Made by a program: the position numbers and the translations under genes. A stretch of 59,380 nucleotides of DNA, the filler included. It is 3 parts of 3 records of this genome, joined end to end, with 100 filler letters (N's around TTAATTAATTAA, not from the genome) between each part and the next. Parts side by side here need not be neighbours in the genome. Positions count along the whole stretch, not along the records: positions 33,259 to 59,380 come from DRR723986_18341; 2 more parts are not named here. One strand, given 5' to 3'. The notes under the pieces are model-generated. The model had not been told where the DNA came from. It saw only the letters and a program-made list of their open reading frames with translations, and ran no database searches. Shown in pieces: positions 20,246-59,380 of the stretch (its first letter is position 1; every line of letters begins with the position of its first letter).

Positions 20246-20345
20246 NNNNNNNNNNNNNNNNNNNNNNNNNNNNNNNNNNNNNNNNNNNNTTAATTAATTA
20301 ANNNNNNNNNNNNNNNNNNNNNNNNNNNNNNNNNNNNNNNNNNNN
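20246..20345. other. Artificial contig-joining spacer
   Basis: 44 N + TTAATTAATTAA (20290-20301, stops in all six frames) + 44 N. Confidence 0.98.
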
Positions 20346-33158: not shown

Positions 33159-33258
33159 NNNNNNNNNNNNNNNNNNNNNNNNNNNNNNNNNNNNNNNNNN
33201 NNTTAATTAATTAANNNNNNNNNNNNNNNNNNNNNNNNNNNNNNNNNNNNNNNNNNNN
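33159..33258. other. Artificial contig-joining spacer
   Basis: 44 N + TTAATTAATTAA (33203-33214) + 44 N. Confidence 0.98.
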
Positions 33259-33361
33259 GGGGAATTTCCTATCCTTTATGGTGAAGGAGAACAAGATTTC
33301 TGATAAGGAGATTGAAGACTTGCAGCGTATGATTGATGACATGGACAAGCCTTCTGAATAA
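33259..33361 (+). CDS. BlaI/MecI/CopY repressor, C-terminal fragment (not in ORF track)
   Basis: Reads GNFLSFMVKENKISDKEIEDLQRMIDDMDKPSE*; stop overlaps the M56 start (TAATG). Confidence 0.8.
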
Positions 33362-34704
33362 TGAATTCAATTATAATCTACTTAGCAGAAGCCAGTATTT
33401 GCGTAGGGATTACGGTCTTGTTTTATCATAGTGTATTGAGAGAACTCACCTTCTTTGCGCTGAATCGGGTTCTTTTGATTGGCATGCTGACGCTCTCTAT
33501 AATAATTCCACTCCTGTCATTTCAAGTGGGCATTTCATCATTAGCATCGGGCGAAATAACGCTTCCTGAATTTACAGTGGGAGATGTTGTACAGGGTGAT
33601 TCTTTGAGTTTTTCCTGGCGGGAGATGGTCTTTTTGACTTACCTAACAGGCGTGGTATTCATGTCAGTTTATCTGAGTTTAGGCTATTTTACTTCTAAAC
33701 AGATGATACGTAAATCCAAACTGTTTCGCTATCAAAATTATTGGGTAGCAGTACATCCTGAGTTTATGCCTGCCTCATTTTTTGATTACATTCTCCTTCC
33801 TGATTTTGATCCAAATAGAGCTGACCAACGTCAGATCATATTGCATGAATCAGTACATGTTCGCTTAAAACACAGTTGGGATTTGCTATTCATCCAGTGT
33901 GCCAAAATTATCTTTTGGTTCAATCCGTTGATTTATCAATTTGAAAAAATACTTCGTGAAGTGCATGAATACCAAGCAGATCAAGGTGTGACTTCATCCT
34001 TTTCTAGAAGGGAATATTCAGGTCTTTTGCTTCAGCTCATCACCAAAGGAGATGGCTGGCACTTCATGAATAACTTCAACCAATTTCAAACCAAAAAACG
34101 AATAATTATGATGAGTAAACCACAATCTCAGAAAAAGGAACTGCGCAGGTTTCTACTCGCAATTCCAGTTTTGGCAGCATTGGTTATCGTGTTTTCCTGT
34201 GAAATAACTCCTGAAGAGGAAATGGAAGGGCCAATGATGGCTGGAGAATTAAAATCAGCACAAATAGGTCCTGCTGACCTCTCAGCTAGAAAACTAAGTG
34301 ATCATGTAGATCAAGTTTTTGATGTAGTTGAAGTTCCCCCACAGCCAATAGGAGGGATATCGGCTTGGCATAAATATCTTTCAAAAACACTTAAATATCC
34401 TGCTCAAGCTAGACGCTCCGGGATTCAAGGGACCGTAATTGTTGGATTTATTGTAGAGGAGGATGGTAACCTTGCTAACGTAGAAATTTTAAAAGGATTA
34501 GGAGGAGCAGTTGATGAAGAAGCGATCAGGGTTGTAGAAAATGCTGATAATTGGGAGCCAGGAAAGCAGAGGGATCGAGTTGTAAGTACTAGAATGAGAT
34601 TACCTATACGATTCAAACTTGCCAATAGCGATGCTAAGATTGAATCAACTTCAGTGTCATCTACTGACAATCTGCCGGAAATCGTTGTTGTTGGGTATAA
34701 TTAG
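33361..34704 (+). CDS. BlaR1-like M56 metallopeptidase fused to TonB C-terminal domain
   Basis: TM helices, ASFFDYI, HESVH (HExxH), HSWD, WFNP, HEYQAD, KKRI; TonB_C LKYPAQARRSGIQGTV...WEPGKQ...RLPIRF. Confidence 0.93.
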   Translation: MNSIIIYLAEASICVGITVLFYHSVLRELTFFALNRVLLIGMLTLSIIIPLLSFQVGISSLASGEITLPEFTVGDVVQGDSLSFSWREMVFLTYLTGVVFMSVYLSLGYFTSKQMIRKSKLFRYQNYWVAVHPEFMPASFFDYILLPDFDPNRADQRQIILHESVHVRLKHSWDLLFIQCAKIIFWFNPLIYQFEKILREVHEYQADQGVTSSFSRREYSGLLLQLITKGDGWHFMNNFNQFQTKKRIIMMSKPQSQKKELRRFLLAIPVLAALVIVFSCEITPEEEMEGPMMAGELKSAQIGPADLSARKLSDHVDQVFDVVEVPPQPIGGISAWHKYLSKTLKYPAQARRSGIQGTVIVGFIVEEDGNLANVEILKGLGGAVDEEAIRVVENADNWEPGKQRDRVVSTRMRLPIRFKLANSDAKIESTSVSSTDNLPEIVVVGYN

Positions 34705-34776
34705 TTGATAATAAATTGATTAACAATTCTCATCAGCTTTCAAACTATTAAGATACACTTAACTAAATCAAAAATT

Positions 34777-35202
34777 ATGAAACGGAAAGTCTATAATTTC
34801 TCGTCTAAAACAATTTTACTTCTGGCGACGGCTCTACTTTTCTTCGCTTTTCTTCCAAATCAAACGGCTCAAGCACAAACTGAAGCTGGGGAAGTATTGA
34901 TGGAGACTGATGAAATGCCTCAACCTAAAGGTGGACTTGATGGCTGGATGGCATACTTGACTGAAAATATGAAGTATCCGGTATTAGCAAAGGAAAAGAA
35001 TATAGAAGGAACGGTGATCGTCACATTTGTGGTGTTAGAAACTGGAGAAATTGATACTGTGGAAATTCTAAGAGGAATAGGCGGAGGTTGCGATGAGGAA
35101 GCAATGCGCTTGGTAAAAGAGTCGCCTAAATGGACACCTGGCAAAAAGGATGGTGAACTGGTCAAGGTAAGAATGAGACTTCCTGTAAGGTTCAAGTTAT
35201 AA
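34777..35202 (+). CDS. Stand-alone TonB C-terminal-domain protein
   Basis: Signal peptide ending AQA-Q; MKYP..AKEKNIEGTV..GIGGGCDEEA..WTPGK..LPVRF. Confidence 0.9.
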   Translation: MKRKVYNFSSKTILLLATALLFFAFLPNQTAQAQTEAGEVLMETDEMPQPKGGLDGWMAYLTENMKYPVLAKEKNIEGTVIVTFVVLETGEIDTVEILRGIGGGCDEEAMRLVKESPKWTPGKKDGELVKVRMRLPVRFKL

Positions 35203-35269
35203 ATGCCTGATAAATTTCTGAAAAAGAATAACTACAATCCCTTTGTGAAATATACCTAACCTAAAAAGC

Positions 35270-35686
35270 ATGAAACGAACAATCCATAATTTCCCGCAAA
35301 AAGTAATTTCAATTCTTTCAATTTTCCTGCTGCTATTGGTTTTTCTACCTATTCAATTAGCTCAAGCTCAAACTGAAGAAGAGAAGAATGATATTATGCC
35401 AATTCCACCAGGAGGCATACAAGGTTGGTATTCTTATCTGGGTGAAAACCTCAAGTATCCAGAAAGTGCTAAAGAAAAAGGAGTAGAAGGAGTAGTCATT
35501 GTAGAACTTCTGGTAAAAACTGATGGGTCAATTGATAATGTTTCAGTTGTTCGCGGCATTGGTGGAGGTTGTGATGAAGAAGCAATGCGGGTTATCCAAA
35601 AGTCGTCCAATTGGACACCAGGCGAAAAAGATGGAAAGCCAGTTAATACGGTGATGAAGATCCCGATAAAATTTGCATTAAGTTAA
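35270..35686 (+). CDS. Stand-alone TonB C-terminal-domain protein (paralog)
   Basis: Signal peptide ending AQA-Q; LKYPESAKEKGVEG..GIGGGCDEEA..WTPG..IPIKF. Confidence 0.9.
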   Translation: MKRTIHNFPQKVISILSIFLLLLVFLPIQLAQAQTEEEKNDIMPIPPGGIQGWYSYLGENLKYPESAKEKGVEGVVIVELLVKTDGSIDNVSVVRGIGGGCDEEAMRVIQKSSNWTPGEKDGKPVNTVMKIPIKFALS

Positions 35687-36475: not shown

Positions 36476-37240
36476 ATGAAAAAGAGAATTTTCTCACTAG
36501 CTATTACTGCTAGTGCATTGACTTTGAGTTCAATAGCAGTTGCCCAAGATAAAACACCTCCACCTATGAGACCGGAGGCTACTGAATTTTACACTCCTGT
36601 GCCACCTAAAGTTACCCCAGGAGCAAATAACACAGCTCCTCCCTCTGATGCCATCGTGCTTTTCGATGGAACCAGTTTAAATGGGTTTGTAAGTGCAAAT
36701 GACGGTTCCCCTGCTGGATGGACGATTGAAAATGGAGAATTAGTGGTTACCAAAGGTAAAGGAGATATCAAATCTAAAATACCTTTTGGCGATGCACAAT
36801 ACCACGTAGAATGGTCAGCCCCAACAGAAATTGTGGGCGAAGGACAGGGCAGAGGAAACTCTGGTTTTTTCTTGATGGGAATGTATGAAGTACAGGTTCT
36901 GGATAGCTACGAAAGTAAGACTTATACTAATGGACAAGCTGGAAGTATTTATAAGCAGCATCCTCCTCTTGCAATGGCATTGAGACCAGCCGGTGAATGG
37001 AATTATTACGATATTATTTTCAAAGCACCACGTTTCAACAAGGATGGTATTGTTACTTCTCCAGCTACTGTTACAGTTATTATGAATGGTGTGGTAGTTC
37101 AAAATAATGTGACCTTGAAAGGTCCTACCGAATACATCGGTATTCCAAACTATAAAGCACATCCTGAGAAGCTTCCAATTAAGCTTCAAGATCACGGCAA
37201 CCCAGTTAGATTTAGAAATATCTGGGTTCGAGAACTTTAA
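36476..37240 (+). CDS. DUF1080 (3-keto-glycoside hydrolase/hydratase fold) protein
   Basis: PPSDAIVLFDG, HVEW, RGNSG, YEVQVLDS, LQDHGNPVRFRNIWVREL. Confidence 0.94.
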   Translation: MKKRIFSLAITASALTLSSIAVAQDKTPPPMRPEATEFYTPVPPKVTPGANNTAPPSDAIVLFDGTSLNGFVSANDGSPAGWTIENGELVVTKGKGDIKSKIPFGDAQYHVEWSAPTEIVGEGQGRGNSGFFLMGMYEVQVLDSYESKTYTNGQAGSIYKQHPPLAMALRPAGEWNYYDIIFKAPRFNKDGIVTSPATVTVIMNGVVVQNNVTLKGPTEYIGIPNYKAHPEKLPIKLQDHGNPVRFRNIWVREL

Positions 37241-37253
37241 TCAATCGGTATAT

Positions 37254-37288
37254 AAATAGCAGTTAATTTAATTAACTGCTATTTTTTT
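37254..37288 (+). terminator. AT-rich hairpin/terminator between DUF1080 and oxidoreductase genes
   Basis: AAATAGCAGTTAAT...ATTAACTGCTATTT plus T-run. Confidence 0.7.
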
Positions 37289-37314
37289 GTCTATACTCAA
37301 TAACCCAAAATACT

Positions 37315-38655
37315 ATGTCATCAAGAAGAAAATTTATTCAAAACACCATGTTGTTGGGTGCAGGTTTGGGAATGCCTCAAATTCTAACTGCATCCGATTT
37401 TGGCCGATTTACTAGAAAAATCAAGGCTTCTGATCAACTTAACTATGGCCTGATTGGCTGCAAAGGCATGGGTTGGTCTAATATGAATGCTCACCTTAAA
37501 ATGCCTCAAGTGAATTGCGTTGCCTTGGCAGATGTGGATCAAAGCGTACTAGATCAGCGGACAGAGGATGTTTTCAAACTGCGGGGCACCCGCCCAAAGC
37601 AGTACAAAGATTACAGAAAGCTGCTCGAGGATCCGGATATAGATATCGTGATCATTGGGACTCCAGATCACTGGCATTGCCTAATTATGTGCGACGCGGT
37701 TTCTGCTGGTAAAAATGTTTACGTAGAAAAGCCAATTGCAAATACCATTGAAGAATGTCAGTTGATGGTAAAAGCTCAGGAGCGTTACGGTAAAGTGGTG
37801 CAGGTAGGGCAGTGGCAGCGTTCCGGTTCTCAGTACGCAGAAGCAATTGATTATGTTAAATCCGGGAAACTAGGCCAGATTCGATTGGTGAAATGCTGGG
37901 CATACCAAGGCTGGATGAAACCGGTTCCTGTATTGCCAAATGGTCCGGCACCAGATGGAGTAGATTATAAAATGTGGCTAGGACCCGCTCCAGAGCGACC
38001 GTTCAATCCAAATCGTTTTCACTTCAATTTCCGCTGGTTTTGGGATTATGCTGGAGGGTTGATGACCGACTGGGGAGTACATGAGATAGATATTGCGTTA
38101 TATGCGATGGGAGTTTCTGCGCCGAAATCTGTAATGGCCTCAGGAGGTAAATTTGCTTATCCAAATGATGCATCTGAGACGCCTGATACCTTGCAAACAG
38201 TTTATGAATACGACGGCTTTAATATGCTCTGGGAACATGCTACAGGTATAGATGGAGGGAATTATGGAACGACCGAAGGTATTGCATTCATAGGGAATAA
38301 TGCCACACTGGTGGTGAATAGAGGAGGGTGGAAGGTGATTCCTGAAACTGAAACAGTGGATGGAAATAGAGTTCCAAAAGTAGAAGAAGTTCCTCATACC
38401 AAAGGTGTAGGAAATGCTTTGGATTTACATGCTGTCAACTTCGTGGAAGCTGTTAAGGCCAATGATCCAAGCCTTCTCAATTGTGCAATTCAGACGGGTA
38501 GTGTAGCGGCTATCAATGCCCAAATGGGAAACATTGCCTACAAAACCGGAGAGAAAGTATATTGGAATGCAGCTAAAAATCAATTTACCTCGTCCGCTGC
38601 GAATGACTTGATGAAAGCCCATTATCATAATGGCTGGGAACTTCCGAAAGTTTAG
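37315..38655 (+). CDS. Tat-exported Gfo/Idh/MocA oxidoreductase
   Basis: SRRKF Tat motif, GLIGCKGMG, TPDHWH, YVEKP, QVGQWQRS, DWGVH. Confidence 0.94.
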   Translation: MSSRRKFIQNTMLLGAGLGMPQILTASDFGRFTRKIKASDQLNYGLIGCKGMGWSNMNAHLKMPQVNCVALADVDQSVLDQRTEDVFKLRGTRPKQYKDYRKLLEDPDIDIVIIGTPDHWHCLIMCDAVSAGKNVYVEKPIANTIEECQLMVKAQERYGKVVQVGQWQRSGSQYAEAIDYVKSGKLGQIRLVKCWAYQGWMKPVPVLPNGPAPDGVDYKMWLGPAPERPFNPNRFHFNFRWFWDYAGGLMTDWGVHEIDIALYAMGVSAPKSVMASGGKFAYPNDASETPDTLQTVYEYDGFNMLWEHATGIDGGNYGTTEGIAFIGNNATLVVNRGGWKVIPETETVDGNRVPKVEEVPHTKGVGNALDLHAVNFVEAVKANDPSLLNCAIQTGSVAAINAQMGNIAYKTGEKVYWNAAKNQFTSSAANDLMKAHYHNGWELPKV

Positions 38656-39168: not shown

Positions 39169-39558
39169 TTACAGGACAAACTTAGCCAATTTGTATTTTG
39201 TCGTAAACGGACGTATTTGTTTTTTTATCTTTTTGCGGTATTCTTTAACGGTTTTTTCTCCAAGGATACTTTCAAACATGGAATTTTGCTCTTTAGCAAG
39301 ACCAGAGATTTTGGCTATTTTCTTATCGTCTGATTCATCACTTCCTGCTATGCCTATTACCTTATCGAAAAAGGAAGAGTTGCTTTTGCTCAACTTATCT
39401 TTTTGATCTTTAGTTATTCCTAAATCGTCACCTGGAGCGAAAGCACCCAGCATATCCTTTTTGAAATCAGGGGTAGGTAACTTGATAGTTTGCGACGAGG
39501 CTTGAAAGCTGATAGCCGCTAGAAGAAAGATAAAGGCTGTAATTAGGTTAGTTTTCAT
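39169..39558 (-). CDS. Secreted small helical hypothetical protein (paralog B)
   Basis: Signal peptide ending ASS-Q; 129 aa; shares DQKxKLxKxNSSF..SDD.K..ILG with neighbour. Confidence 0.8.
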   Translation of the reverse strand: MKTNLITAFIFLLAAISFQASSQTIKLPTPDFKKDMLGAFAPGDDLGITKDQKDKLSKSNSSFFDKVIGIAGSDESDDKKIAKISGLAKEQNSMFESILGEKTVKEYRKKIKKQIRPFTTKYKLAKFVL

Positions 39559-39571
39559 AAGAATTAATTTT

Positions 39572-39747
39572 ATGTATATCCGCTTTTGTGCCCGTATGAA
39601 GTCAAGAGCGAAAAAGGATATGTTAAACTTAAGGATTGAGGCCGCTTCTGCCTGTCCCGCCAGTGCAGGGAGTCTTCGGTCATCGATTTTCAGGCCAGAT
39701 TAGCAAAGAATTTAAAGTGACTGGCATCATAGCGGATAATCATTTTT
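39572..39747. repeat. Dispersed structured intergenic element, copy 1
   Basis: Shares CCGCTTTT, TTAAACTTAAG(G)ATTGAGGCC, TTCGGTC, AGCAAAGAA, GTGACTGGC.TCAT, CGGATA.TCAT with copy 2. Confidence 0.85.
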
Positions 39748-39750
39748 ATT

Positions 39751-40245
39751 TTACTTAAATAATCCCTTCCCCATATCCATCAGTCCGCCTAGATCCATTC
39801 CTCCTTTGCCACCGCCGCCTAGAAGTGAGCCTAGTAAATCCGATGTCCCTACTTTACCTTGACCTCCCTGAAGTGAGGAAACAATAGACGACATGATGTC
39901 ATTATTGTCCTGTGGGGCGTCATTTACACGCTTGTTGAAGAAATTCATTATCATAGGCAGTGCAGCTGCAGCAATTCCCATAGCTTGCTCCTTAGAGATG
40001 CCCAATTTGTCCATCAGGTTTTGAGATACATCGCCTTGAAGACTATTGATGACTGGGGCACCTGGAGAGGTTTCTTTTCCAGAAAACATTTCCATAATGG
40101 CATCTGTATCACCTGATGATACTCGTTTCTGAAGGCTATTCGTGAGAGAATCTTTGATGGCTGAGGCGCTTGCCTTGTCCTGATTCATTCCTTCAAGCAT
40201 TTCTTGAAGCGGACCTTCCGCTAATTTTAACAATTGATCTAACAT
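39751..40245 (-). CDS. Gly-rich DUF937/YidB-like helical protein
   Basis: MLDQLLK, KLGISKEQA..IAAAALP, GG-rich C-terminus. Confidence 0.7.
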   Translation of the reverse strand: MLDQLLKLAEGPLQEMLEGMNQDKASASAIKDSLTNSLQKRVSSGDTDAIMEMFSGKETSPGAPVINSLQGDVSQNLMDKLGISKEQAMGIAAAALPMIMNFFNKRVNDAPQDNNDIMSSIVSSLQGGQGKVGTSDLLGSLLGGGGKGGMDLGGLMDMGKGLFK

Positions 40246-40392
40246 GATTTCAAAAATTTGTTTGATGTAATTTCTTTAAAATGGACTTAGATTCCAATTT
40301 AATTCCTTTTTAAAACATCTAAATTCTAGGAATGCTTACATGAAAAAGTAATAGTCAAGCTTAATGTCTATAAACTGTAGAATTGGTATTGT

Positions 40393-41061
40393 TTATTTCC
40401 CACCAAAATTTTGAACCCCAATAAGGTAAGGAACATTGAAAAATTCCTTATTTCCATAAACACTAGCCCCACATCCTAACTTGGTGAAACGAGGATTTAG
40501 AATGCTCTTTCTGTGGCTGGGAGAATTCATCCACATCCTTACTGCTTCCTTAGCATAGCTAAGATAAGTATGCGGCAAAATCACCTCACGCTTTGAACTG
40601 GCATAAGTATACATTCCCCCAGATTTGGGAATATTGATTTTTCTACCGTCTTGATATTGCAGACCAATACTTGAGCTAATATTTTCACCTACTAACACTG
40701 AGGGTAATCCTTCAAGTGCAAATCGATCATTGACTGTCTTTTTGCCTTTTACCTGACTTACATGGGAATAGAATTGGAAAGTAACCATATCGGCAGCGTG
40801 ACCTGAAGCAACTCTTTCAATAGCGTCCGAATGCTCAAAGGGAGGTAAACCATATTTGACTCGTTCCAAATTGGTCACATGAAACATCGCCGCTTGAAGT
40901 AGTCCTCTGTCCATCTTCTTATAATTGATGGTTTGATGAACCGCAGCAAGCTGCAGAAACTCTTCTTGGGTAAAGCGTTTATAATCCGAAGGGATCCAGG
41001 TCTGAGCTGCCAAGGAATGGGCAAATAGAACAAAAACTAAGAGCAGGAATCGGGTACGCAA
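40393..41061 (-). CDS. CAP (SCP) domain exported protein
   Basis: TNLERVKYGLPP, HAADM, YSH, GENI, WMNSPSHRKSIL, LGCG, QNF. Confidence 0.9.
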   Translation of the reverse strand: MRTRFLLLVFVLFAHSLAAQTWIPSDYKRFTQEEFLQLAAVHQTINYKKMDRGLLQAAMFHVTNLERVKYGLPPFEHSDAIERVASGHAADMVTFQFYSHVSQVKGKKTVNDRFALEGLPSVLVGENISSSIGLQYQDGRKINIPKSGGMYTYASSKREVILPHTYLSYAKEAVRMWMNSPSHRKSILNPRFTKLGCGASVYGNKEFFNVPYLIGVQNFGGK

Positions 41062-41350
41062 GGAATACTAGTTTGGCAATTGTTACGGGTATATTCTGAA
41101 GAATAGACGATCCCTAAGCCAAAATATTTTATAGGAATAGGTGGATTTGTTTGATATCGAACAAAATCTCTGTTCAGAATCGTAACACGATGTTTTACTG
41201 GGTTCTCCCTAGTGTGCTATTATTCAATTATTTATAATTCCAGTTGATGCTATTTTCGCCAATTTGAGAAGGATGTTTTGCACAAAAATGCAGGTGGACT
41301 TTTATGTCAGGCGCGTATACCTTGTTTTATTTACGATTGGAGATTTTTTA

Positions 41351-41498
41351 ATAGGTACCCGCTTTTCTACCAGAAAGGTGGCAAAAGCAATGCAAGACAT
41401 TTTAAACTTAAGATTGAGGCCACTTCGGGTTTCGGTCCTCCAACCTGATAAGCAAAGAACCTAAGGTGACTGGCCTCATTACGGATAGTCATATTTTT
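41351..41498. repeat. Dispersed structured intergenic element, copy 2
   Basis: Homologous to 39572-39747 in the same orientation; TGAGGCC/GGCCTCA stem. Confidence 0.85.
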
Positions 41499-41782
41499 TA
41501 TAATCCGGTTTACTAGGATTTCTCCTTTGTATTATTCTAAGTGATTTGCTTTAACTGCCAGATTATTTGGCATTAATGACATTTTTTAAGCAATAAATTT
41601 TAATTTGTAGGGAGTTTTCAGATTGGACTATCTGACGAAAATGTCCTGATTTTTCCATAGGTTTTTGAAAACTCCCAGATGATTTTTTTTTCATCTCCAG
41701 CATAATACAAGGGCAATGCACGATGAATATCTGCTTACCTAATTGAAATGTTTCAGTTCTCTTAACCAAACAATTTTTACCT

Positions 41783-44700
41783 ATGGCTATTTTGAAAATT
41801 AAGCTGAAAGGACAAGATCATTCTTCATTTCACAAAGGCGATGATAGCGGCTTTGAACTCTACCAATTTGCACAAGCTTTTACGATAGAAAGCCCAACGA
41901 GAGGCGACGTACCTGAGCAGGTCCTCGAACTAGATGAAAATCACATTGTTGAATTTGATTTTGAGGATGAGACTGTCTGGATGGGGGATAATGAGACTAT
42001 TAAAACGCTATTCCCGTTGGAGGTAAAGCGCTCTGCAGATGGAGATGAGCTCTACCTTCCAGATGAGCTGGAGTCTGATGAGCAGGATAGGGGCGTATTC
42101 AAAAAGATAGGGATTAAGCTCTTGAAAGTCTTCGTAAAAAAGAAGATTATTCAACCCAAAATTAAAGAACTGGCGAGAAACCTTGAGGATAAGCAATTGG
42201 CATTTACTGGGGAGGATTTCAAAAAGGTGAGGCATGGACTGTTAATAGCTTGTTCTCCCAAAATCGAACTTACTCCACTTAAATTTAGCAAGAATAATGT
42301 GGCTGAGCTAGATGTGAAAAGTCGGCATTTGCTCTTGCTTCACGGTACGGGTTCATCTACTGAAGGTTCCTTTGGGGAGCTAAAGGAATCCGATGAGTGG
42401 CTGAATTTGATTCAGAAATATGGTAAAGAGCATTTGATTGCTTTTCAGCACAGAACATTGACTACCAGTCCTCTTGAGAATATTCTTGAACTGGTTTTGA
42501 GTCTTCCGTCAGGTATTCAATTGGATCTTTTGAGTCATTCCCGTGGTGGATTATTGGCGGATTTATTGGCAAGATTTTCTACAAGTCCTGAGGGGTTTGA
42601 TGAAATAGAAAAGGCCCTTTTAGATAAACATGAGAGGTCTTCAGATCTCAAAACAATTGCGGAAATCAGAGATATTCTTCAAGCGAAAAAAATAACCATT
42701 CGCTCGATGGTCCGTGTAGCCAGCCCGGCCAATGGTACCACACTAGCCTCAAGTCGTTTAAATATTTTCTTGAATGTGACATTCAACTTACTAGGCCTAG
42801 CGGTAGGTCATGTGGGCAACCCAATCTACGTTGCATTCAAGGAGTTTATCATGGAAGCTGTCGCCTGCAAAGATGACGTGGATATTTTGCCAGGTTTGGA
42901 AGCAATGAATCCCAAATCCCCTTTCATCAAAGCGATGAATTATCAGGCCTCCGACATTGAAATTAAGTTTCCACTTTTCGTGGTAGGCGGCAGTAGCGAA
43001 TTGAGTTTGAGTTTTAAGACGCTGGTAGTGATTTTGGGTAAGTTTTTCTTTATGAAGAAAAATGACCTGGTAGTCGATACAGAAAGTATGAAATGGGGGG
43101 CAAGACGCTCCTCAGGAAATGTTGCTGTTTATATTCAGAAAAGCGGAGTTATCAATCACTTCAAATACTTTTCAAACCCAGATACTGTCAAAGCTTTGGT
43201 CACTGGCTTAGCTGCGGAAGTAGGGGATATTCCGGATAGTTTTGAATTGAAATTAGTTGATAAGGATAGAGGTGCAATAGAAATTGGAGCTTATAAAAAG
43301 GATAAGGTCTCTGGATCCCGGCCGATTGCTATTGTGATTCCAGGCATCATGGGGTCAAACATCGGCGAAAAGGATGAACTACTGTGGATTAATTATTGGC
43401 GATTCCTGAAGGGTGAATTAACAGGCTTGGCATATAATTCGGATTCAAAGTCTGGTTTATCTGCTCATTCATTGATCAAAACCTCCTACGGTAATTTGGG
43501 AGATAAACTTTCCGAGACCTATGATGTGGTTACCTTCCAATTTGATTGGAGAATTCCTTTGAAGAAAAGTGCTGAAGACTTCAAGACTAAAATTGAGGAA
43601 CTATTGGGTTTTAATCAACCCATTAAAATCGTAGCTCATAGCATGGGTGGAGTTTTGGTCAGGGATTTTATTGTTTATCATAAAGAAACCTGGCAAAAGC
43701 TCAATTCCTCTATTGGCTTCAGAGCTGTATTCCTAGGCTCACCACTGGGAGGTTCGTACCGAATTCCATATGTGCTTTTTGGCAAGGATAGCTTGATTCA
43801 ACTTTTGGGTAAAATAGATATTAGACACTCTACAAAGGAGCTTTTGGAAGTGTTCTGCAATTTCCCTGGAATACTTAATCTCTTGCCAATGAGCAATAAT
43901 ACTCGACATGATTTCTCCGATAGAAACTTATGGGAGCGCATGCGAGCTGCTTCGGGTGATGAATCCTGGCCAATTCCTTCTGCAACAGTTTTGGAGGAAT
44001 TTGGAAAGCATCAAAAAGTCGTGTTAGACAACATGGACAGCATTGATTATTCGAATATTACTTACATCGCAGGGCAAAGTGGAAAGAAAAGCTTCACAAT
44101 TTCCAACCTAGATATTGAGGATGGTGAGCTAGTGTTCTCTGCCACAAATGCAGGAGATGAGAGTGTAACATGGATGTCAGGGATTCCAAAGGCTTTTCAT
44201 GATAAAAACCAAGTTTACTATGCAAATGTGACGCATGGGGGACTTTCTAAGGAAAGGAGTCTTTTCGCTGCCATAGAAGATTTGTTGATTTTTGGAAGCA
44301 CTAAAAGGTTACAAAATAGCCTTCCTAAAACGCGTGGAGACGAAAAGGATTTTGCTCCTTCCGAAACTGAGGTATTTGATATCAGTGAAGAGAATGTGTT
44401 GAATACCATTTTGGGAATAGAAGAAGTAGCTGAAAAATGGCAGGAAGAAAAACCTATACTGGTATCCGTAAGCCATGGAGACTTGAAATATGCTAAGTAC
44501 CCGGTGTTGGCAGGTCATTTTGAGTTTGATGCCATTCTTACCACAGAACATGCGATAGACCGTCAACTTGATGGTGAGCTTGCCAGATTACATGGATTAG
44601 GACTTTATCCGGGGCCTATCGGTACGAATCAGATTGTATTAAATGAAAACTTTACCAAATCCACCTTCAAAGGAGGTCTGATTATCGGCTTGGGCGTGCC

Positions 44701-47125
44701 TGGAGAATTATCAGGATTTGCGTTGATGAATTCGGTGGAGAAAGGCGTTGCTCGATACTTGACAATAAAAAAGGAAAATACTGATGTTCAAAATGATGGA
44801 GCTATTTCTGCAACTACTGGCATTTCAGTGATTGCTATCGCGAATGCCTATGGAGGTTTATCCACCGAGAGTTCTATTCGAGCTATTATTCTTGGTATTC
44901 AGCGTGCTAATAGAAATATTAAGTCCGTCTATAATGGAAAAATTAGAGGCATAGAGGAAATAGAAATTATCGAAATATTTAACGATAAAGCCTTGTCTAT
45001 TTTGAAAACCATTCAGCGTTTAGAAGTGGATGATAGCAAAGAGTTTAATGTGGCTTTCAAAGAGAAGGGGTTAAACTACAAACTAGGCAGACGCTGGAGA
45101 ATTCCTTATGAGAATACAAAGGACTGGTGGACTAGGGTGAGTGTATCCCATGAGTTGAAAATCAAAGAGCAGGGTGAGGTGGAAGAAGCTATTAAAATGT
45201 CCATTGCTTCTAACGGTGCAAGCGAAAAGGTGGAGTTTATGCCTACTAGCGACAAGACCCTGGATGTACTGCTCAAGAGAATGACTTTGGAAAACCAATA
45301 TTCCCCGGAAATAGCTAAAACAATGTTTGAGTTATTGATTCCATTTGAGTTTAAGGAAGAAGTAAAGCGTCTAAATAATGTCTCTTGGATATTGGATTTG
45401 CCTTCTGCAGAATATCCTTGGGAAATGATACAGGAAGATGTGGATGCAGTTCCGCTTTGTGTGCACACGGGTATGATTCGACAGTTGACCACCATGCAAT
45501 TCCGTAAAAAAATAGCGCGAGTTATAGAGAAATCGGCTCTGGTTGTCGGTGATCCTGTTCTTGATAAGTTTATGCCACAGTTACCTGGAGCTAAACGTGA
45601 AGCAGAAGCTGTTGTCAATATTCTCAAAAAAAATGATTACCAAATTCAGAGTTTGATAAGTAGTACTGCCTCTGATATTATCCTTAAGCTTTTTTCCAGG
45701 AATCATAAGATCATACATCTTGCTGGTCACGGAGTATTCAAACACGGTCCAAATCATTCTACCGGAATGGTGATTGGCAATGATACATTCTTGACGCCTG
45801 CTCAAATAGCAGGAATGAGCTCTTCGGCAGAATTAGTATTTGTGAATTGCTGCTACCTAGGGTTGATGGATAGGGGATCGGAGGAAAGAAGTCAGTACAG
45901 GAATAAGTTTGCAGCAAATATTGGTACTCAGCTAATCAACAATGGTGCTCGGGCGGTAATAGTGGCTGGCTGGGCAGTGGATGATGCAGCTGCCTTGGAA
46001 TTTTCTAAGCAATTCTATGAAAATATGTTTGATGGCCTTGGCTTTGGCGAAGCAGTAAAACGGGCTAGAAAAGTGATTTATAAGGATTACGGTCGAAGAA
46101 CGAATACCTGGGGTGCTTTTCAATGTTATGGAGATCCATTCTACAAGCTGTCAGAAGATGGAGTTTGGAGAAATAACGATGATGAACTGCTCGTCTGTGA
46201 AGAGGTTGAAATTGAGCTTCAAAATACATTGGAGTCAATGGATGCTAATGAATATTATCATGATGGAGTGCTCAGTCGACTTGATTCAGTAGTTGATATA
46301 ATGCAAAGCAGGAATATGCTTAATGATAGAATTCATGAGCTTTCTGCAAATATCTATGCGGGGCTTCAAGAATATGAGAAGTCTTGTAAGTGCTATGAGC
46401 AGCTCTTGAAATCCAAGAAATCAGCATTCACCATCAAGAGTTTTGAGCGGTATTGTAATACAAGTGTTAAGCTAGCACTTCAGCAATTTTCTTTGAAAAA
46501 GACAGGGCAAAAAGAGGCTGTGAAAATGATTGATAAAGTCATTGATGACCTAAGAGGATTGGCCAAGCATTTTGGGGAAAGTGCAGAGCGCTGGAGTTTG
46601 ATTGGAAGTGCTTACAAACGGAAAATGCACATTCTACAGGATGCCCCAATTAATGAATTATTGGAAGCAATGTCAGAGTCTATTAATGCCTATAAGCAAG
46701 CGAGTAAATTGTCTGATTATAAAGATGCCTATCCACTTACCAATTGGTTGACAATTACTAGGCTTCAACTTTTGTTGCAAGAGAAAGGTGGCCTGAAGAA
46801 AATTGATTTGGAGGCTAGAAAGGCGATTCAAAGAATCTATGATGACTTAAAAAGCAGTGATCAGAAGTCTGATGATTTTTGGAAAATGGCTCATTATGTA
46901 AACATCATGTTAACTCAATTCCTGATGGGCATTTCCGAGGCGAAGAAAGAAGATATTGTTAATGAATACCTGAAGCTTTGGAAGCTTGCAGGCAATAAAG
47001 GTCAAAAAATTGCAGAGTTAGAGCATTTTGAAATAGTTTCCTCGATGTTGGCAATAGTTAAATCTGAAGATAAATTGAAGTCGGACGTTAATGAAATTAT
47101 GAAAAAGCTTGAAGAATGTCTTTAA
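41783..47125 (+). CDS. 1780-aa multidomain protein: two alpha/beta-hydrolase (lipase/LCAT-like) domains, Macro/M17N-like domain, CHAT caspase-like protease, TPR-like C-terminus
   Basis: LLHGTGSS and SHSRGG (S253); IPGIMGS, FDWR, AHSMGG (S620), LGSPLGGS; CHAT PWEM, GDP, LPGAKREA, IHLAGHG (H1316), VNCC (C1356/1357), WAVDD, WGAFQCYGDP; helical tail SLIGSAYKR, YPLTN. Confidence 0.9.
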   Translation: MAILKIKLKGQDHSSFHKGDDSGFELYQFAQAFTIESPTRGDVPEQVLELDENHIVEFDFEDETVWMGDNETIKTLFPLEVKRSADGDELYLPDELESDEQDRGVFKKIGIKLLKVFVKKKIIQPKIKELARNLEDKQLAFTGEDFKKVRHGLLIACSPKIELTPLKFSKNNVAELDVKSRHLLLLHGTGSSTEGSFGELKESDEWLNLIQKYGKEHLIAFQHRTLTTSPLENILELVLSLPSGIQLDLLSHSRGGLLADLLARFSTSPEGFDEIEKALLDKHERSSDLKTIAEIRDILQAKKITIRSMVRVASPANGTTLASSRLNIFLNVTFNLLGLAVGHVGNPIYVAFKEFIMEAVACKDDVDILPGLEAMNPKSPFIKAMNYQASDIEIKFPLFVVGGSSELSLSFKTLVVILGKFFFMKKNDLVVDTESMKWGARRSSGNVAVYIQKSGVINHFKYFSNPDTVKALVTGLAAEVGDIPDSFELKLVDKDRGAIEIGAYKKDKVSGSRPIAIVIPGIMGSNIGEKDELLWINYWRFLKGELTGLAYNSDSKSGLSAHSLIKTSYGNLGDKLSETYDVVTFQFDWRIPLKKSAEDFKTKIEELLGFNQPIKIVAHSMGGVLVRDFIVYHKETWQKLNSSIGFRAVFLGSPLGGSYRIPYVLFGKDSLIQLLGKIDIRHSTKELLEVFCNFPGILNLLPMSNNTRHDFSDRNLWERMRAASGDESWPIPSATVLEEFGKHQKVVLDNMDSIDYSNITYIAGQSGKKSFTISNLDIEDGELVFSATNAGDESVTWMSGIPKAFHDKNQVYYANVTHGGLSKERSLFAAIEDLLIFGSTKRLQNSLPKTRGDEKDFAPSETEVFDISEENVLNTILGIEEVAEKWQEEKPILVSVSHGDLKYAKYPVLAGHFEFDAILTTEHAIDRQLDGELARLHGLGLYPGPIGTNQIVLNENFTKSTFKGGLIIGLGVPGELSGFALMNSVEKGVARYLTIKKENTDVQNDGAISATTGISVIAIANAYGGLSTESSIRAIILGIQRANRNIKSVYNGKIRGIEEIEIIEIFNDKALSILKTIQRLEVDDSKEFNVAFKEKGLNYKLGRRWRIPYENTKDWWTRVSVSHELKIKEQGEVEEAIKMSIASNGASEKVEFMPTSDKTLDVLLKRMTLENQYSPEIAKTMFELLIPFEFKEEVKRLNNVSWILDLPSAEYPWEMIQEDVDAVPLCVHTGMIRQLTTMQFRKKIARVIEKSALVVGDPVLDKFMPQLPGAKREAEAVVNILKKNDYQIQSLISSTASDIILKLFSRNHKIIHLAGHGVFKHGPNHSTGMVIGNDTFLTPAQIAGMSSSAELVFVNCCYLGLMDRGSEERSQYRNKFAANIGTQLINNGARAVIVAGWAVDDAAALEFSKQFYENMFDGLGFGEAVKRARKVIYKDYGRRTNTWGAFQCYGDPFYKLSEDGVWRNNDDELLVCEEVEIELQNTLESMDANEYYHDGVLSRLDSVVDIMQSRNMLNDRIHELSANIYAGLQEYEKSCKCYEQLLKSKKSAFTIKSFERYCNTSVKLALQQFSLKKTGQKEAVKMIDKVIDDLRGLAKHFGESAERWSLIGSAYKRKMHILQDAPINELLEAMSESINAYKQASKLSDYKDAYPLTNWLTITRLQLLLQEKGGLKKIDLEARKAIQRIYDDLKSSDQKSDDFWKMAHYVNIMLTQFLMGISEAKKEDIVNEYLKLWKLAGNKGQKIAELEHFEIVSSMLAIVKSEDKLKSDVNEIMKKLEECL

Positions 47126-59320: not shown

Positions 59321-59380
59321 AAAATATGAGCATCCGCAATGATGCCAGTAGCCTTAGATTCTTTGCTTATCTGGTCGGAA
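59321..59380. repeat. Dispersed element, copy 3, inverted and cut by window end
   Basis: ATGAGCATCCGCAATGATGCCAGTAGCCTTAGATTCTTTGCTTATCTGGT matches the reverse complement of the 3' end of copies 1 and 2. Confidence 0.85.

What the first reader, a model, noticed from the sequence alone, without database searches (positions are those of the whole stretch)
39572..41498. Multi-copy structured intergenic element (150-180 nt; third inverted copy at 59321-59380)
Seen: three copies in 26 kb. Copies 1 and 2 keep pairing despite sequence change. Hairpin A is GCTTTTG/CAAGAGC versus GCTTTT/AAAAGC with unrelated loops. Stem B is TGAGGCC/GGC(A/C)TCA, extended in copy 2 by CACTTCGGGTT/AACCTAAGGTG. Copy 1 has an extra CCTG..CAGG hairpin and imperfect terminal inverted repeats (ATGTATATCCGCT ... 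AGCGGATAATCAT). G-U pairs favour the + strand fold. It matches no RNA family I recognise. Inference: an undescribed ncRNA family or a MITE/REP-like mobile element; no cognate transposase is in the window.
Basis: partly seen in the sequence, partly recalled or inferred. Interest (0 to 1): 0.75.

Follow-up and report, generated by a model that had tools for sequence, protein, structure and literature searches.

The report
New MITE family in Algoriphagus genomes
The three repeats are copies of a small non-coding "jumping DNA" element (a MITE) that is scattered through the genomes of Algoriphagus bacteria; it is an ordinary kind of element, although this family does not seem to have been described.

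Summary
The three copies are real. Refined coordinates are 39571-39744 (+), 41350-41493 (+) and 59325 to the window end (-, cut off), with nhmmer E-values of 3e-37, 1.8e-31 and 1.2e-13.

They belong to a repeat family found almost only in the genus Algoriphagus. About 110 of these are family members, with up to 19 stretches in one genome.

The family has the features of a MITE:
- Size of 133-195 bp, with a mode of 152 bp.
- 13-bp terminal inverted repeats.
- An A/T-rich 8-bp target-site duplication: 8/8 in 38 and 7/8 in 21 of 88 copies, far above permuted pairings.
- A precise filled versus empty orthologous site that holds a single copy of the 8-mer.
- No conserved ORF, strictly intergenic positions and no orientation bias (12 co-oriented vs 13 anti-oriented).

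A conserved strand-specific RNA fold is not supported. RNAalifold finds almost nothing, the paired terminal columns do not covary, and both strands fold equally well. There is no Rfam match. No cognate transposase was found.

This is a new member of a known kind and of modest interest. As a side finding, an IS110-family element sits at the same nucleotide inside two different copies in A. algorifonticola.

The parts
39571..39744 (+). MITE copy 1, full length (174 nt). 5' TIR at 39571-39583 and 3' TIR at 39732-39744. Lies 12 nt upstream of the start of the 129-aa ORF 39169-39558(-) and 6 nt beyond the stop of the DUF937 gene 39751-40245(-).
   Evidence: nhmmer E 3e-37, model positions 1-151; alignment A2; distances to neighbours; Pfam on the flanking genes.
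39563..39570 (.). Left copy of the 8-bp target-site duplication of copy 1 (ATTAATTT).
   Evidence: Read. It matches 6 of 8 positions of the right copy.
39745..39752 (.). Right copy of the target-site duplication of copy 1 (TTTATTTT).
   Evidence: Read; register.
39649..39673 (+).
   Evidence: Columns 81-105 of A2 are filled in 15 of 86 copies.
39674..39696 (+). Degenerate remnant of the internal CTTCGGT/CATCGGT heptamer array in copy 1.
   Evidence: Alignment A2. Heptamer-like count per copy is 0-4, most often 3 (36 of 86).
41350..41493 (+). MITE copy 2 (144 nt), older and more degenerate: 5' TIR is AATAGGTACCCGC and identity to copy 1 is 71.5%. Lies in the divergent region between the CAP-domain gene 40393-41061(-) and the CHAT-domain gene 41783-47125(+), 289 nt upstream of the latter.
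   Evidence: nhmmer E 1.8e-31; identity; flanking genes; distance.
59325..59380 (-). MITE copy 3, 3' part only because the window end cuts it. Its 3' TIR reads TATGAGCATCCGC on the + strand at 59325-59337. It ends 66 nt upstream of the start (59258) of the alpha/beta-hydrolase gene, in the same orientation.
   Evidence: Inverted-repeat pairs I4 and I5; nhmmer E 1.2e-13, model positions 97-151. The orthologous intergenic region of A. aquimarinus (L006 11763-11975) has no copy.

Best explanation

Its structure is as follows. Each copy is bounded by 13-bp terminal inverted repeats, 5' TATGTATATCCGC and 3' GCGGATAATCA(T/C/G)A. A second inverted block lies about 20 nt in from each end (CCAGT near the 5' end, ACTGG near the 3' end). 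The core holds a short CTTCGGT/CATCGGT heptamer array of variable copy number and optional GC-rich hairpin modules.

How it most likely works: a transposase supplied in trans recognises the two ends, makes a cut staggered by 8 bp in A/T-rich intergenic DNA and inserts the element, which duplicates the 8-bp target.

Shown here: the ends, the 8-bp duplication, one exact filled/empty site, the copy number, the intergenic position, the lack of an ORF and lineage-specific bursts of amplification.

Inferred: that a DDE-type transposase acts in trans, which enzyme it is (not found), and any effect on neighbouring genes.
For: (1) Family and host range. 111 are from Algoriphagus or closely related MAG records, with 19 stretches in A. 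aestuarii, 15 in A. winogradskyi, 11 in A. yeomjeoni DSM 23446 and 10 in A. algorifonticola. 108 of 120 non-redundant matches are similar to window copies 1 and 2 by blastn.

(2) Ends. In an alignment of 111 copies with flanks, conservation starts at TATG and stops at CA(N)A. The 11 scored TIR pairs (2 of the 13 positions are mismatches in the consensus and were left out) are complementary in 89% of cells, and the CCAGT/ACTGG block in 95%.

(3) Target-site duplication. In the 88 of 111 copies with both ends recognisable, upstream positions -1 to -8 equal downstream positions +3 to +10 in 68-76 of 88 copies. Position -9 matches in only 38 of 88. A 9-nt window matches at a mean of 7.07 positions, against 3.99 +/- 0.15 in 2000 permuted pairings (maximum 4.57). 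The duplication is 8/8 in 38 and 7/8 in 21 of 88 copies. The target is 90.5% A/T.

(4) Empty site. The L080 copy is flanked by TAATAAAA on both sides. The orthologous site in A. yeomjeoni DEN5 (L011) has one TAATAAAA and no element, with flanks that align over 4.6 and 3.4 kb. There are also presence/absence differences at copy 3 (absent in A. aquimarinus) and between the orthologues of window genes 36476-37240 and 37315-38655 (present in L046, absent in the window).

(5) No coding capacity. The ORF that starts at the ATG in the TIR runs 1-54 codons with no preferred length.

(6) Position. 57 of 57 copies with long flanks are intergenic. Of the 42 with both neighbours within 400 nt, 12 are co-oriented, 13 anti-oriented, 11 convergent and 6 divergent.

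(7) Amplification within lineages. Mean identity is 85.4% within genomes and 75.3% between genomes. Copies are up to 99.3% identical, in A. aquimarinus, A. ratkowskyi and MAG Ww129.

(8) These features match the definition of prokaryotic MITEs in PMC10969869, section 2.1 (passages read).
Against: No autonomous partner was found.
- No transposase domain appears in 50 window ORFs.
- There is no TIR pair 0.25-6 kb apart with a good duplication, other than MITE dimers and neighbouring copies.
- No repeated 0.5-4 kb DNA occurs among the fetched loci away from locus ends.
- There is no transposase next to 7 truncated copies.

The heptamer region (GGTCTTCC and its neighbours) is at least 90% conserved even in subfamilies whose 5' halves differ strongly. 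This is more internal conservation than a purely selfish element needs.

A few internal pairs do show double changes: 74-154 is CG in 31 copies and UA in 10; 75-153 is CG in 26 and UA in 14; 14-37 is UA in 69 and AU in 6. Some selected hairpin, in DNA or RNA, is therefore not excluded.

The set of copies was gathered with a fixed 24-nt pattern, so the invariance of alignment columns 163-185 is by construction.
Confidence: 0.92

Rival explanations
1. A multi-copy structured non-coding RNA (an sRNA or cis-regulatory RNA family) whose function depends on a conserved fold of the + strand transcript.
For: Single copies fold more stably than dinucleotide shuffles (mean z -2.16 on the + strand, 43 copies). 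Some pairs keep pairing through G-U on the + strand (147-154 is UA in 45 copies and UG in 30; 75-183 is CG in 53 and UG in 21). A few pairs show double changes. Copies 2 and 3 lie upstream of, and co-oriented with, a gene.
Against: RNAalifold finds 3 pairs at -0.89 kcal/mol on 86 copies. On the 43 copies of 148-154 nt it gives -1.6 kcal/mol for the + strand and -5.0 for the - strand. The - strand folds at least as well (mean z -2.55). The best-paired helices never covary, and the double changes trace to single subfamilies. There is no orientation bias (12 vs 13). The flanking genes are unrelated. The TSD and the empty site show that it is mobile DNA. There is no Rfam match and no terminator- or promoter-like excess.
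Confidence: 0.04
2. A REP/BIME-type extragenic palindrome spread by a RAYT (IS200/IS605-like) transposase rather than by a TIR-recognising transposase.
For: It is intergenic, multi-copy and hairpin-rich, and it occurs in tandem arrays with a shared spacer (L018, L119).
Against: It has 13-bp terminal inverted repeats and an 8-bp target duplication, with an exact empty site. As I recall, REP/RAYT spread does not produce these. No RAYT-like gene was seen, though none was specifically searched for.
Confidence: 0.02
3. A MITE that has been exapted. On top of being mobile DNA, its conserved core does something for the host or for other elements. It could be a slippage-prone heptamer array that tunes neighbouring genes, an outward promoter, or a landing pad for a site-specific IS110-family recombinase. 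This reading adds to the best explanation and does not exclude it.
For: The heptamer region is conserved at 90% or more across divergent subfamilies while its copy number varies from 0 to 4. Orthologous copies in two species differ by internal modules (L009 195 nt vs L022 146 nt). Two different copies in A. algorifonticola carry an identical IS110-family element at the same nucleotide. Copy 1 sits 12 nt before a start codon, so that gene must be transcribed through or out of the element. The Bacteroidota MITE BrickBuilt has promoter activity in both directions (abstract of PMC4596501).
Against: No expression data are available. There is no promoter- or terminator-like excess in the window copies, although the scan uses sigma-70 consensus, which is not the Bacteroidota type. 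There is no orientation bias. IS110 targeting was seen in only one genome.
Confidence: 0.15

Closest known systems
BrickBuilt MITE of Porphyromonas gingivalis (PMC4596501; abstract read)
   Same: It is from the same phylum (my knowledge of the taxonomy). It is a small non-coding element with inverted-repeat ends and an internal tandem repeat of variable copy number. It is always intergenic, has about 19 copies per genome and is limited to one host group.
   Different: BrickBuilt's internal repeat is a 23-nt minisatellite, whereas here it is a 7-nt unit with 0-4 copies. I detected no sequence relationship. Here the 8-bp duplication and an exact empty site are shown. BrickBuilt's promoter activity was tested, and nothing of that kind was tested here.
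QMITE2 of Coxiella burnetii, as pictured in the review PMC10969869 (figure legend read)
   Same: The architecture is the same: direct repeats of 7-9 bp, terminal inverted repeats and a core of about 113-145 bp.
   Different: QMITE2's TIRs are longer (23-29 bp against 13 bp plus a separate 5-bp block). The host and the sequence are unrelated.
Correia elements of Neisseria (named in PMC10969869; their TA target duplication is recalled from memory)
   Same: A multi-copy intergenic MITE with TIRs that can place regulatory signals next to genes.
   Different: Correia duplicates TA (recalled), whereas here the duplication is 8 bp. There is no sequence similarity, and the IHF and promoter features of Correia were not tested here.
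REP sequences as targets of IS110-family elements (IS621 and ISPpu10; search listing and abstract starts only)
   Same: A conserved multi-copy intergenic repeat serves as the insertion target of an IS110-family element. Here two MITE copies are hit at the same nucleotide.
   Different: The repeat here is a TIR/TSD transposon, not a REP. A bridge RNA was not demonstrated: there is no Rfam match, only a near-copy of the target inside the IS's non-coding end.

Membership tests
Prokaryotic MITE (definition in PMC10969869, section 2.1) | Total length under about 500 bp | tested here: met
   133-195 bp, with a mode of 152 bp (38 of 88 copies).
Prokaryotic MITE | Terminal inverted repeats of about 4-30 bp | tested here: met
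   13-bp TIRs, 11 of 13 positions complementary in the consensus, and 89% of cells paired over 86 copies.
Prokaryotic MITE | Flanking direct repeats produced by target-site duplication | tested here: met
   8-bp duplication, 8/8 in 38 and 7/8 in 21 of 88 copies. The observed mean match is 7.07 against 3.99 +/- 0.15 in permuted pairings.
Prokaryotic MITE | Mobility: an empty orthologous site with one copy of the target | tested here: met
   L080 is filled and L011 is empty, with a single TAATAAAA. This is one exact case; three further presence/absence cases are less exact.
Prokaryotic MITE | No transposase or other conserved ORF inside | tested here: met
   The element is too short for a transposase, and the ORF from the TIR's ATG varies from 1 to 54 codons.
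Prokaryotic MITE | Multi-copy and located in A/T-rich intergenic DNA | tested here: met
   Up to 19 stretches per genome in a scan that was cut short. 57 of 57 copies are intergenic. The target is 90.5% A/T.
Prokaryotic MITE | A related autonomous IS with the same ends that supplies the transposase | tested here: inconclusive
   None was found in the window or in about 1.4 Mb of fetched loci.
Any Rfam RNA family | A match at the family's gathering score | tested here: not met
   0 matches in the window. The best sub-threshold hits are chance-level.
Structured ncRNA in general | A consensus fold supported by covariation on one strand | tested here: not met
   RNAalifold gives -0.89 kcal/mol and 3 pairs. 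The terminal helices do not covary. Both strands fold equally well.
Cis-regulatory RNA (riboswitch or leader) | A fixed orientation upstream of functionally related genes | tested here: not met
   12 co-oriented, 13 anti-oriented, 11 convergent and 6 divergent. The neighbouring genes are unrelated.
REP/BIME elements | A short palindromic unit without TIR or TSD, associated with a RAYT gene (recalled definition) | tested here: not met
   The unit is 133-195 bp and has TIRs and an 8-bp TSD. RAYT association was not tested.

The most novel reading that the evidence does not exclude
The MITE may be more than selfish DNA. Its heptamer-repeat core is as conserved as its ends, yet it varies in copy number and in inserted GC-rich modules even between orthologous copies. 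This core could be a selected module. It might act as a contingency (slippage) switch on adjacent genes, or as subterminal binding sites of a kind not yet described for bacterial 8-bp-TSD transposons. The family also serves as the programmed landing pad of an RNA-guided IS110-family recombinase in at least one species. On this reading a bridge-RNA element and a MITE would form a nested, mutually dependent pair.
Probability: 0.12. Interest if true: 0.55.

Novelty: new member of a known kind. Interest (0 to 1): 0.3.

Why it matters
For annotation, these roughly 150-bp repeats should be masked as a MITE family in Algoriphagus and related Cyclobacteriaceae, not called as sRNA genes. They also probably break draft assemblies.

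For biology, the family gives insertion-polymorphism markers for the genus. It also records recent bursts of an unidentified transposase that makes 8-bp duplications. In this window it places foreign DNA 12 nt before one start codon, 66 nt before a second and 289 nt before a third.

The nested IS110-family element offers a natural case of a bridge-type recombinase aimed at a mobile repeat. None of this changes what is known about MITEs in general.

Tried and rejected
- Rfam, whole window at gathering score and the locus at E up to 10: nothing usable.
- tRNA/tmRNA scan: none found.
- Single-sequence folds of the two full window copies on both strands: z -0.6 to -1.3, not significant.
- RNAalifold on all 86 copies, and on the 43 copies of 148-154 nt on both strands: essentially no consensus fold.
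- Search for an autonomous partner, all negative:
  - TIR pairs up to 6 kb apart with a TSD check. The 5992-bp candidate in L050 is just two separate copies.
  - Repeated DNA among the loci.
  - Pfam on 50 window ORFs.
  - Pfam on 15 ORFs beside 7 truncated copies.
- The only transposase seen next to a copy is of the IS110 family. I reject it as the partner for two reasons. The two IS copies are identical over 1323 nt, while the adjoining MITE halves differ by 9 changes in 76 nt, so these are independent insertions into two copies. Also, as I recall, IS110-family elements make neither TIRs nor 8-bp duplications.
- blastn of copy 1 against the plasmid and phage collections: no match.
- Sigma-70 promoter and terminator scan of 39400-41700: no excess over shuffles.
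- Exact empty-site comparison of window 37241-37314 with L046: the intergenic DNA has diverged too far to place the target.
- Literature: no paper holds Algoriphagus with 'miniature inverted-repeat', or with 'repetitive element' and 'intergenic'. 'MITE' with Cyclobacteriaceae gives only two hits, neither of whose titles concerns bacterial MITEs, and nothing holds MITE, Bacteroidetes and 8-bp together.
Full report
**What is in the window**

The window is a scaffold of three contigs joined by N-linkers (20246-20345 and 33159-33258). The finding lies in the last contig (33259-59380).

Reading the region, aligning the copies and searching with a family profile gives exactly three copies:
- 39571-39744 (+), 174 nt, E 3e-37.
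- 41350-41493 (+), 144 nt, E 1.8e-31.
- 59325-59380 (-), model positions 97-151, cut by the window end, E 1.2e-13.

Copies 1 and 2 are 71.5% identical. Rfam has no match at gathering score over the whole window, and only chance-level hits in the locus. There are no tRNA or tmRNA genes.

**Relatives**

I scanned one genome per bacterial and archaeal species for a 24-position pattern from the conserved 3' part.

By record title, 111 stretches are from Algoriphagus species or closely related MAG records:
- A. aestuarii 19
- A. winogradskyi 15
- A. yeomjeoni DSM 23446 11
- A. algorifonticola 10
- A. chordae 9
- A. aquimarinus 7
- MAG Ww129 6
- A. ornithinivorans 5
- A. ratkowskyi 5
- a Cytophagales MAG 4
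- five records with 3 each
- five singles

This total includes one copy on a contig binned as Owenweeksia and one binned as Planctomycetota. One of the 111 (L032, A. ratkowskyi) holds only a 3' fragment of the element. The other 10 stretches are in unrelated taxa and look like chance or coding matches. My own estimate for this pattern is about 4 chance matches.

Of 120 non-redundant matches with enough flank, 108 are similar to window copies 1 and 2 by blastn. The window's own genome is not among the returned loci. Its genes are 74-82% identical to orthologous stretches of A. yeomjeoni DEN5, A. aquimarinus and A. algorifonticola.

All counts per genome are lower bounds. The conservation of the 24 pattern positions is by construction.

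**Anatomy**

In an alignment of 111 copies with flanks, conservation begins abruptly at TATG and ends at CA(N)A. The ends are 13-bp inverted repeats, 5' TATGTATATCCGC and 3' GCGGATAATCA(T/C/G)A. Over 86 distinct copies, 89% of the cells at the 11 scored TIR pairs are complementary; the other 2 of the 13 positions mismatch in the consensus and were left out. A second inverted block, CCAGT at positions 21-25 against ACTGG near the 3' end, pairs in 95% of cells.

Lengths run from 133 to 195 bp, with a mode of 152 bp (38 of 88) and a second cluster at 172-174 bp.

The core holds an array of CTTCGGT/CATCGGT heptamers, 0-4 per copy and most often 3 (36 of 86). There are two optional GC-rich modules, present in 15 and 14 of 86 copies. 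Copy 1's 'extra hairpin' is the first of these modules.

The ORF that starts at the ATG inside the left end has no preferred length (1-54 codons), so nothing is encoded.

**Mobility**

In the 88 of 111 copies with both ends recognisable, the eight bases before the element repeat directly after it. Each of the eight positions matches in 68-76 of 88 copies. The next position out matches in 38 of 88.

A 9-nt window matches at a mean of 7.07 positions, against 3.99 +/- 0.15 in 2000 permuted pairings (maximum 4.57). The duplication is perfect in 38 copies and 7/8 in 21 of 88. The target is 90.5% A/T.

One orthologous pair gives an exact filled/empty comparison. In L080 the element is flanked by TAATAAAA on both sides. 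In A. yeomjeoni DEN5 (L011) the same neighbourhood aligns over 4.6 kb and 3.4 kb on the two sides, and holds one TAATAAAA and no element.

Less exact presence/absence cases:
- Copy 3 is absent from the orthologous intergenic region of A. aquimarinus.
- A. algorifonticola has a copy between the orthologues of window genes 36476-37240 and 37315-38655, where the window has none.

An orthologous copy shared by A. algorifonticola and A. ornithinivorans (flanks 92% identical) differs in length, 195 against 146 nt. The internal modules therefore change after insertion.

Tandem arrays repeat the unit 'element plus 8-mer' (L018, L119).

Copies within a genome are more alike than copies between genomes (85.4% against 75.3%). 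They reach 99.3% identity in A. aquimarinus, A. ratkowskyi and MAG Ww129, which indicates lineage-specific and partly recent amplification.

**Is it an RNA?**

RNAalifold on the 86 copies predicts three pairs at -0.89 kcal/mol. On the 43 copies of 148-154 nt it gives -1.6 kcal/mol for the + strand and -5.0 for the - strand.

Single copies fold better than shuffles on both strands, with mean z of -2.16 (+) and -2.55 (-) over 43 copies. This is what an inverted-repeat DNA element gives, and it shows no strand preference.

For the six candidate helices:
- The two terminal helices are well paired but do not covary.
- Hairpin A is 81% paired. Its one double change (UA in 69 copies, AU in 6) belongs to a single subfamily.
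It has a G-A mismatch in 77 of 86 copies and competes with the better CCAGT/ACTGG pairing.
- An inner helix shows mixed CG/UA pairs, but about half of its cells are unpaired.

All 57 copies with long flanks are intergenic. Of the 42 with both neighbours within 400 nt, 12 are co-oriented, 13 anti-oriented, 11 convergent and 6 divergent. The neighbouring genes are unrelated. There is no excess of promoter- or terminator-like sites in the locus.

The structured-RNA reading therefore fails the tests available here. Expression was not, and could not be, tested.

**How it most likely works**

A transposase made elsewhere binds the two ends, probably the 13-bp repeat together with the CCAGT/ACTGG block. 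It cuts A/T-rich intergenic DNA with an 8-bp stagger and inserts the element. Repair then duplicates the 8-mer. The ends, the duplication and the empty site are shown. The enzyme is inferred, and I did not find it:
- No transposase domain in 50 window ORFs.
- No long TIR-bounded unit in the fetched loci.
- No repeated kilobase-scale DNA among the loci away from locus ends.
- No transposase next to truncated copies.
- No match in the plasmid or phage collections.

An 8-bp duplication is made by several IS families (recalled from memory), and the ends resemble none that I can name, so I leave the family open.

**Consequences in the window**

All of the following effects are inferred.
- Copy 1 fills almost the whole gap between two co-directional minus-strand genes. 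It ends 6 nt after the stop of the DUF937 gene and 12 nt before the start of a 129-aa ORF. That ORF must therefore be transcribed through or out of the element.
- Copy 2 lies in a divergent region, 289 nt upstream of a 1780-aa CHAT-domain gene.
- Copy 3 ends 66 nt upstream of an alpha/beta-hydrolase gene.

**Comparison with known elements, and novelty**

The features match the definition of prokaryotic MITEs in the review PMC10969869 (passages of sections 2.1, 3.1, 3.3 and 4.1 read). That definition includes a length under 500 bp, TIRs of 4-30 bp, flanking direct repeats, A/T-rich intergenic targets and transcripts predicted to form stable stem-loops.

The nearest analogue in the same phylum is BrickBuilt of Porphyromonas gingivalis. 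It is an intergenic MITE with an internal tandem repeat of variable number (abstract of PMC4596501). There is no sequence relationship, and the repeat unit differs.

The searches listed under Tried and rejected found no description of this family, and the review does not mention Algoriphagus or Bacteroid-. ISfinder and Dfam could not be consulted.

I rate it a new member of a known kind, of modest interest.

**Side finding**

In A. algorifonticola two contig ends (L036, L076) carry the same 1.3-kb sequence, which encodes a 332-aa IS110-family transposase (DEDD_Tnp_IS110 at 1.9e-19 and Transposase_20 at 5.2e-21). It abuts the 3' half of a MITE at the same nucleotide, inside the GC-rich module.

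The two IS copies are identical over 1323 nt. The adjoining 76 nt of MITE differ at 9 positions and the outer flanks differ, so these are independent insertions into two copies.

The IS's non-coding end contains a near-copy of the target across the insertion point (read from the output). Rfam has no match there.

This resembles IS110-family elements that target conserved intergenic repeats by a bridge RNA (search listing and abstract starts only). It does not make the IS110 element the MITE's partner.

Noticed in passing
L076:1-1323 and L036:10052-11374 (A. algorifonticola); MITE junction near L076:1310: An IS110-family element (332-aa DEDD transposase) is inserted at the same nucleotide of the GC-rich module in two different MITE copies. 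The IS copies are identical over 1323 nt, while the MITE halves differ at 9 of 76 positions. The IS's non-coding end holds a near-copy of the target site. Both copies sit at contig ends, so the other junction is unseen.
   Followed up: partly
window 20246-20345 and 33159-33258: 100-nt linkers of N runs around TTAATTAATTAA (stops in all six frames). The window is therefore a concatenation of three contigs, so distances across these points mean nothing.
   Followed up: no
window 41783-47125 (+): A 1780-aa protein combining DUF7379, an LCAT-like lipase region, a CHAT (caspase-like) domain and a TPR-S sensor domain. Copy 2 of the MITE lies 289 nt upstream.
   Followed up: no
window 41607-41677: A perfect inverted repeat of about 11 bp (GGGAGTTTTCA / TGAAAACTCCC) with a loop of about 45 nt, between MITE copy 2 and the CHAT-domain gene. 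It gave a chance-level miRNA hit in Rfam (E 0.74).
   Followed up: no
window 33361-35686: Three adjacent genes end in TonB_C domains (a BlaR1/M56-TonB_C gene followed by two proteins of about 140 aa), with a 105-nt direct repeat family (34470, 35049, 35530). This looks like a local gene triplication.
   Followed up: no
L058:5899-6071 and L117 (624-nt locus): Family copies lie on contigs binned as Owenweeksia (a full 173-nt copy with TSD ATTCTTTT) and as Planctomycetota (a divergent copy). This is either mis-binning of Algoriphagus-like contigs or transfer outside the genus.
   Followed up: no
L009:9849-10043 versus L022:9898-10043: An orthologous MITE copy shared by two species (flanks 92% identical) differs by two internal modules (195 vs 146 nt). 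The core therefore gains or loses blocks after insertion.
   Followed up: partly
L018:9982-10293, L119, L109: Tandem arrays in which each element is followed by the same 8-mer (element-TSD-element-TSD). This suggests either repeated insertion into the duplicated target or unequal exchange between the 8-mers.
   Followed up: partly
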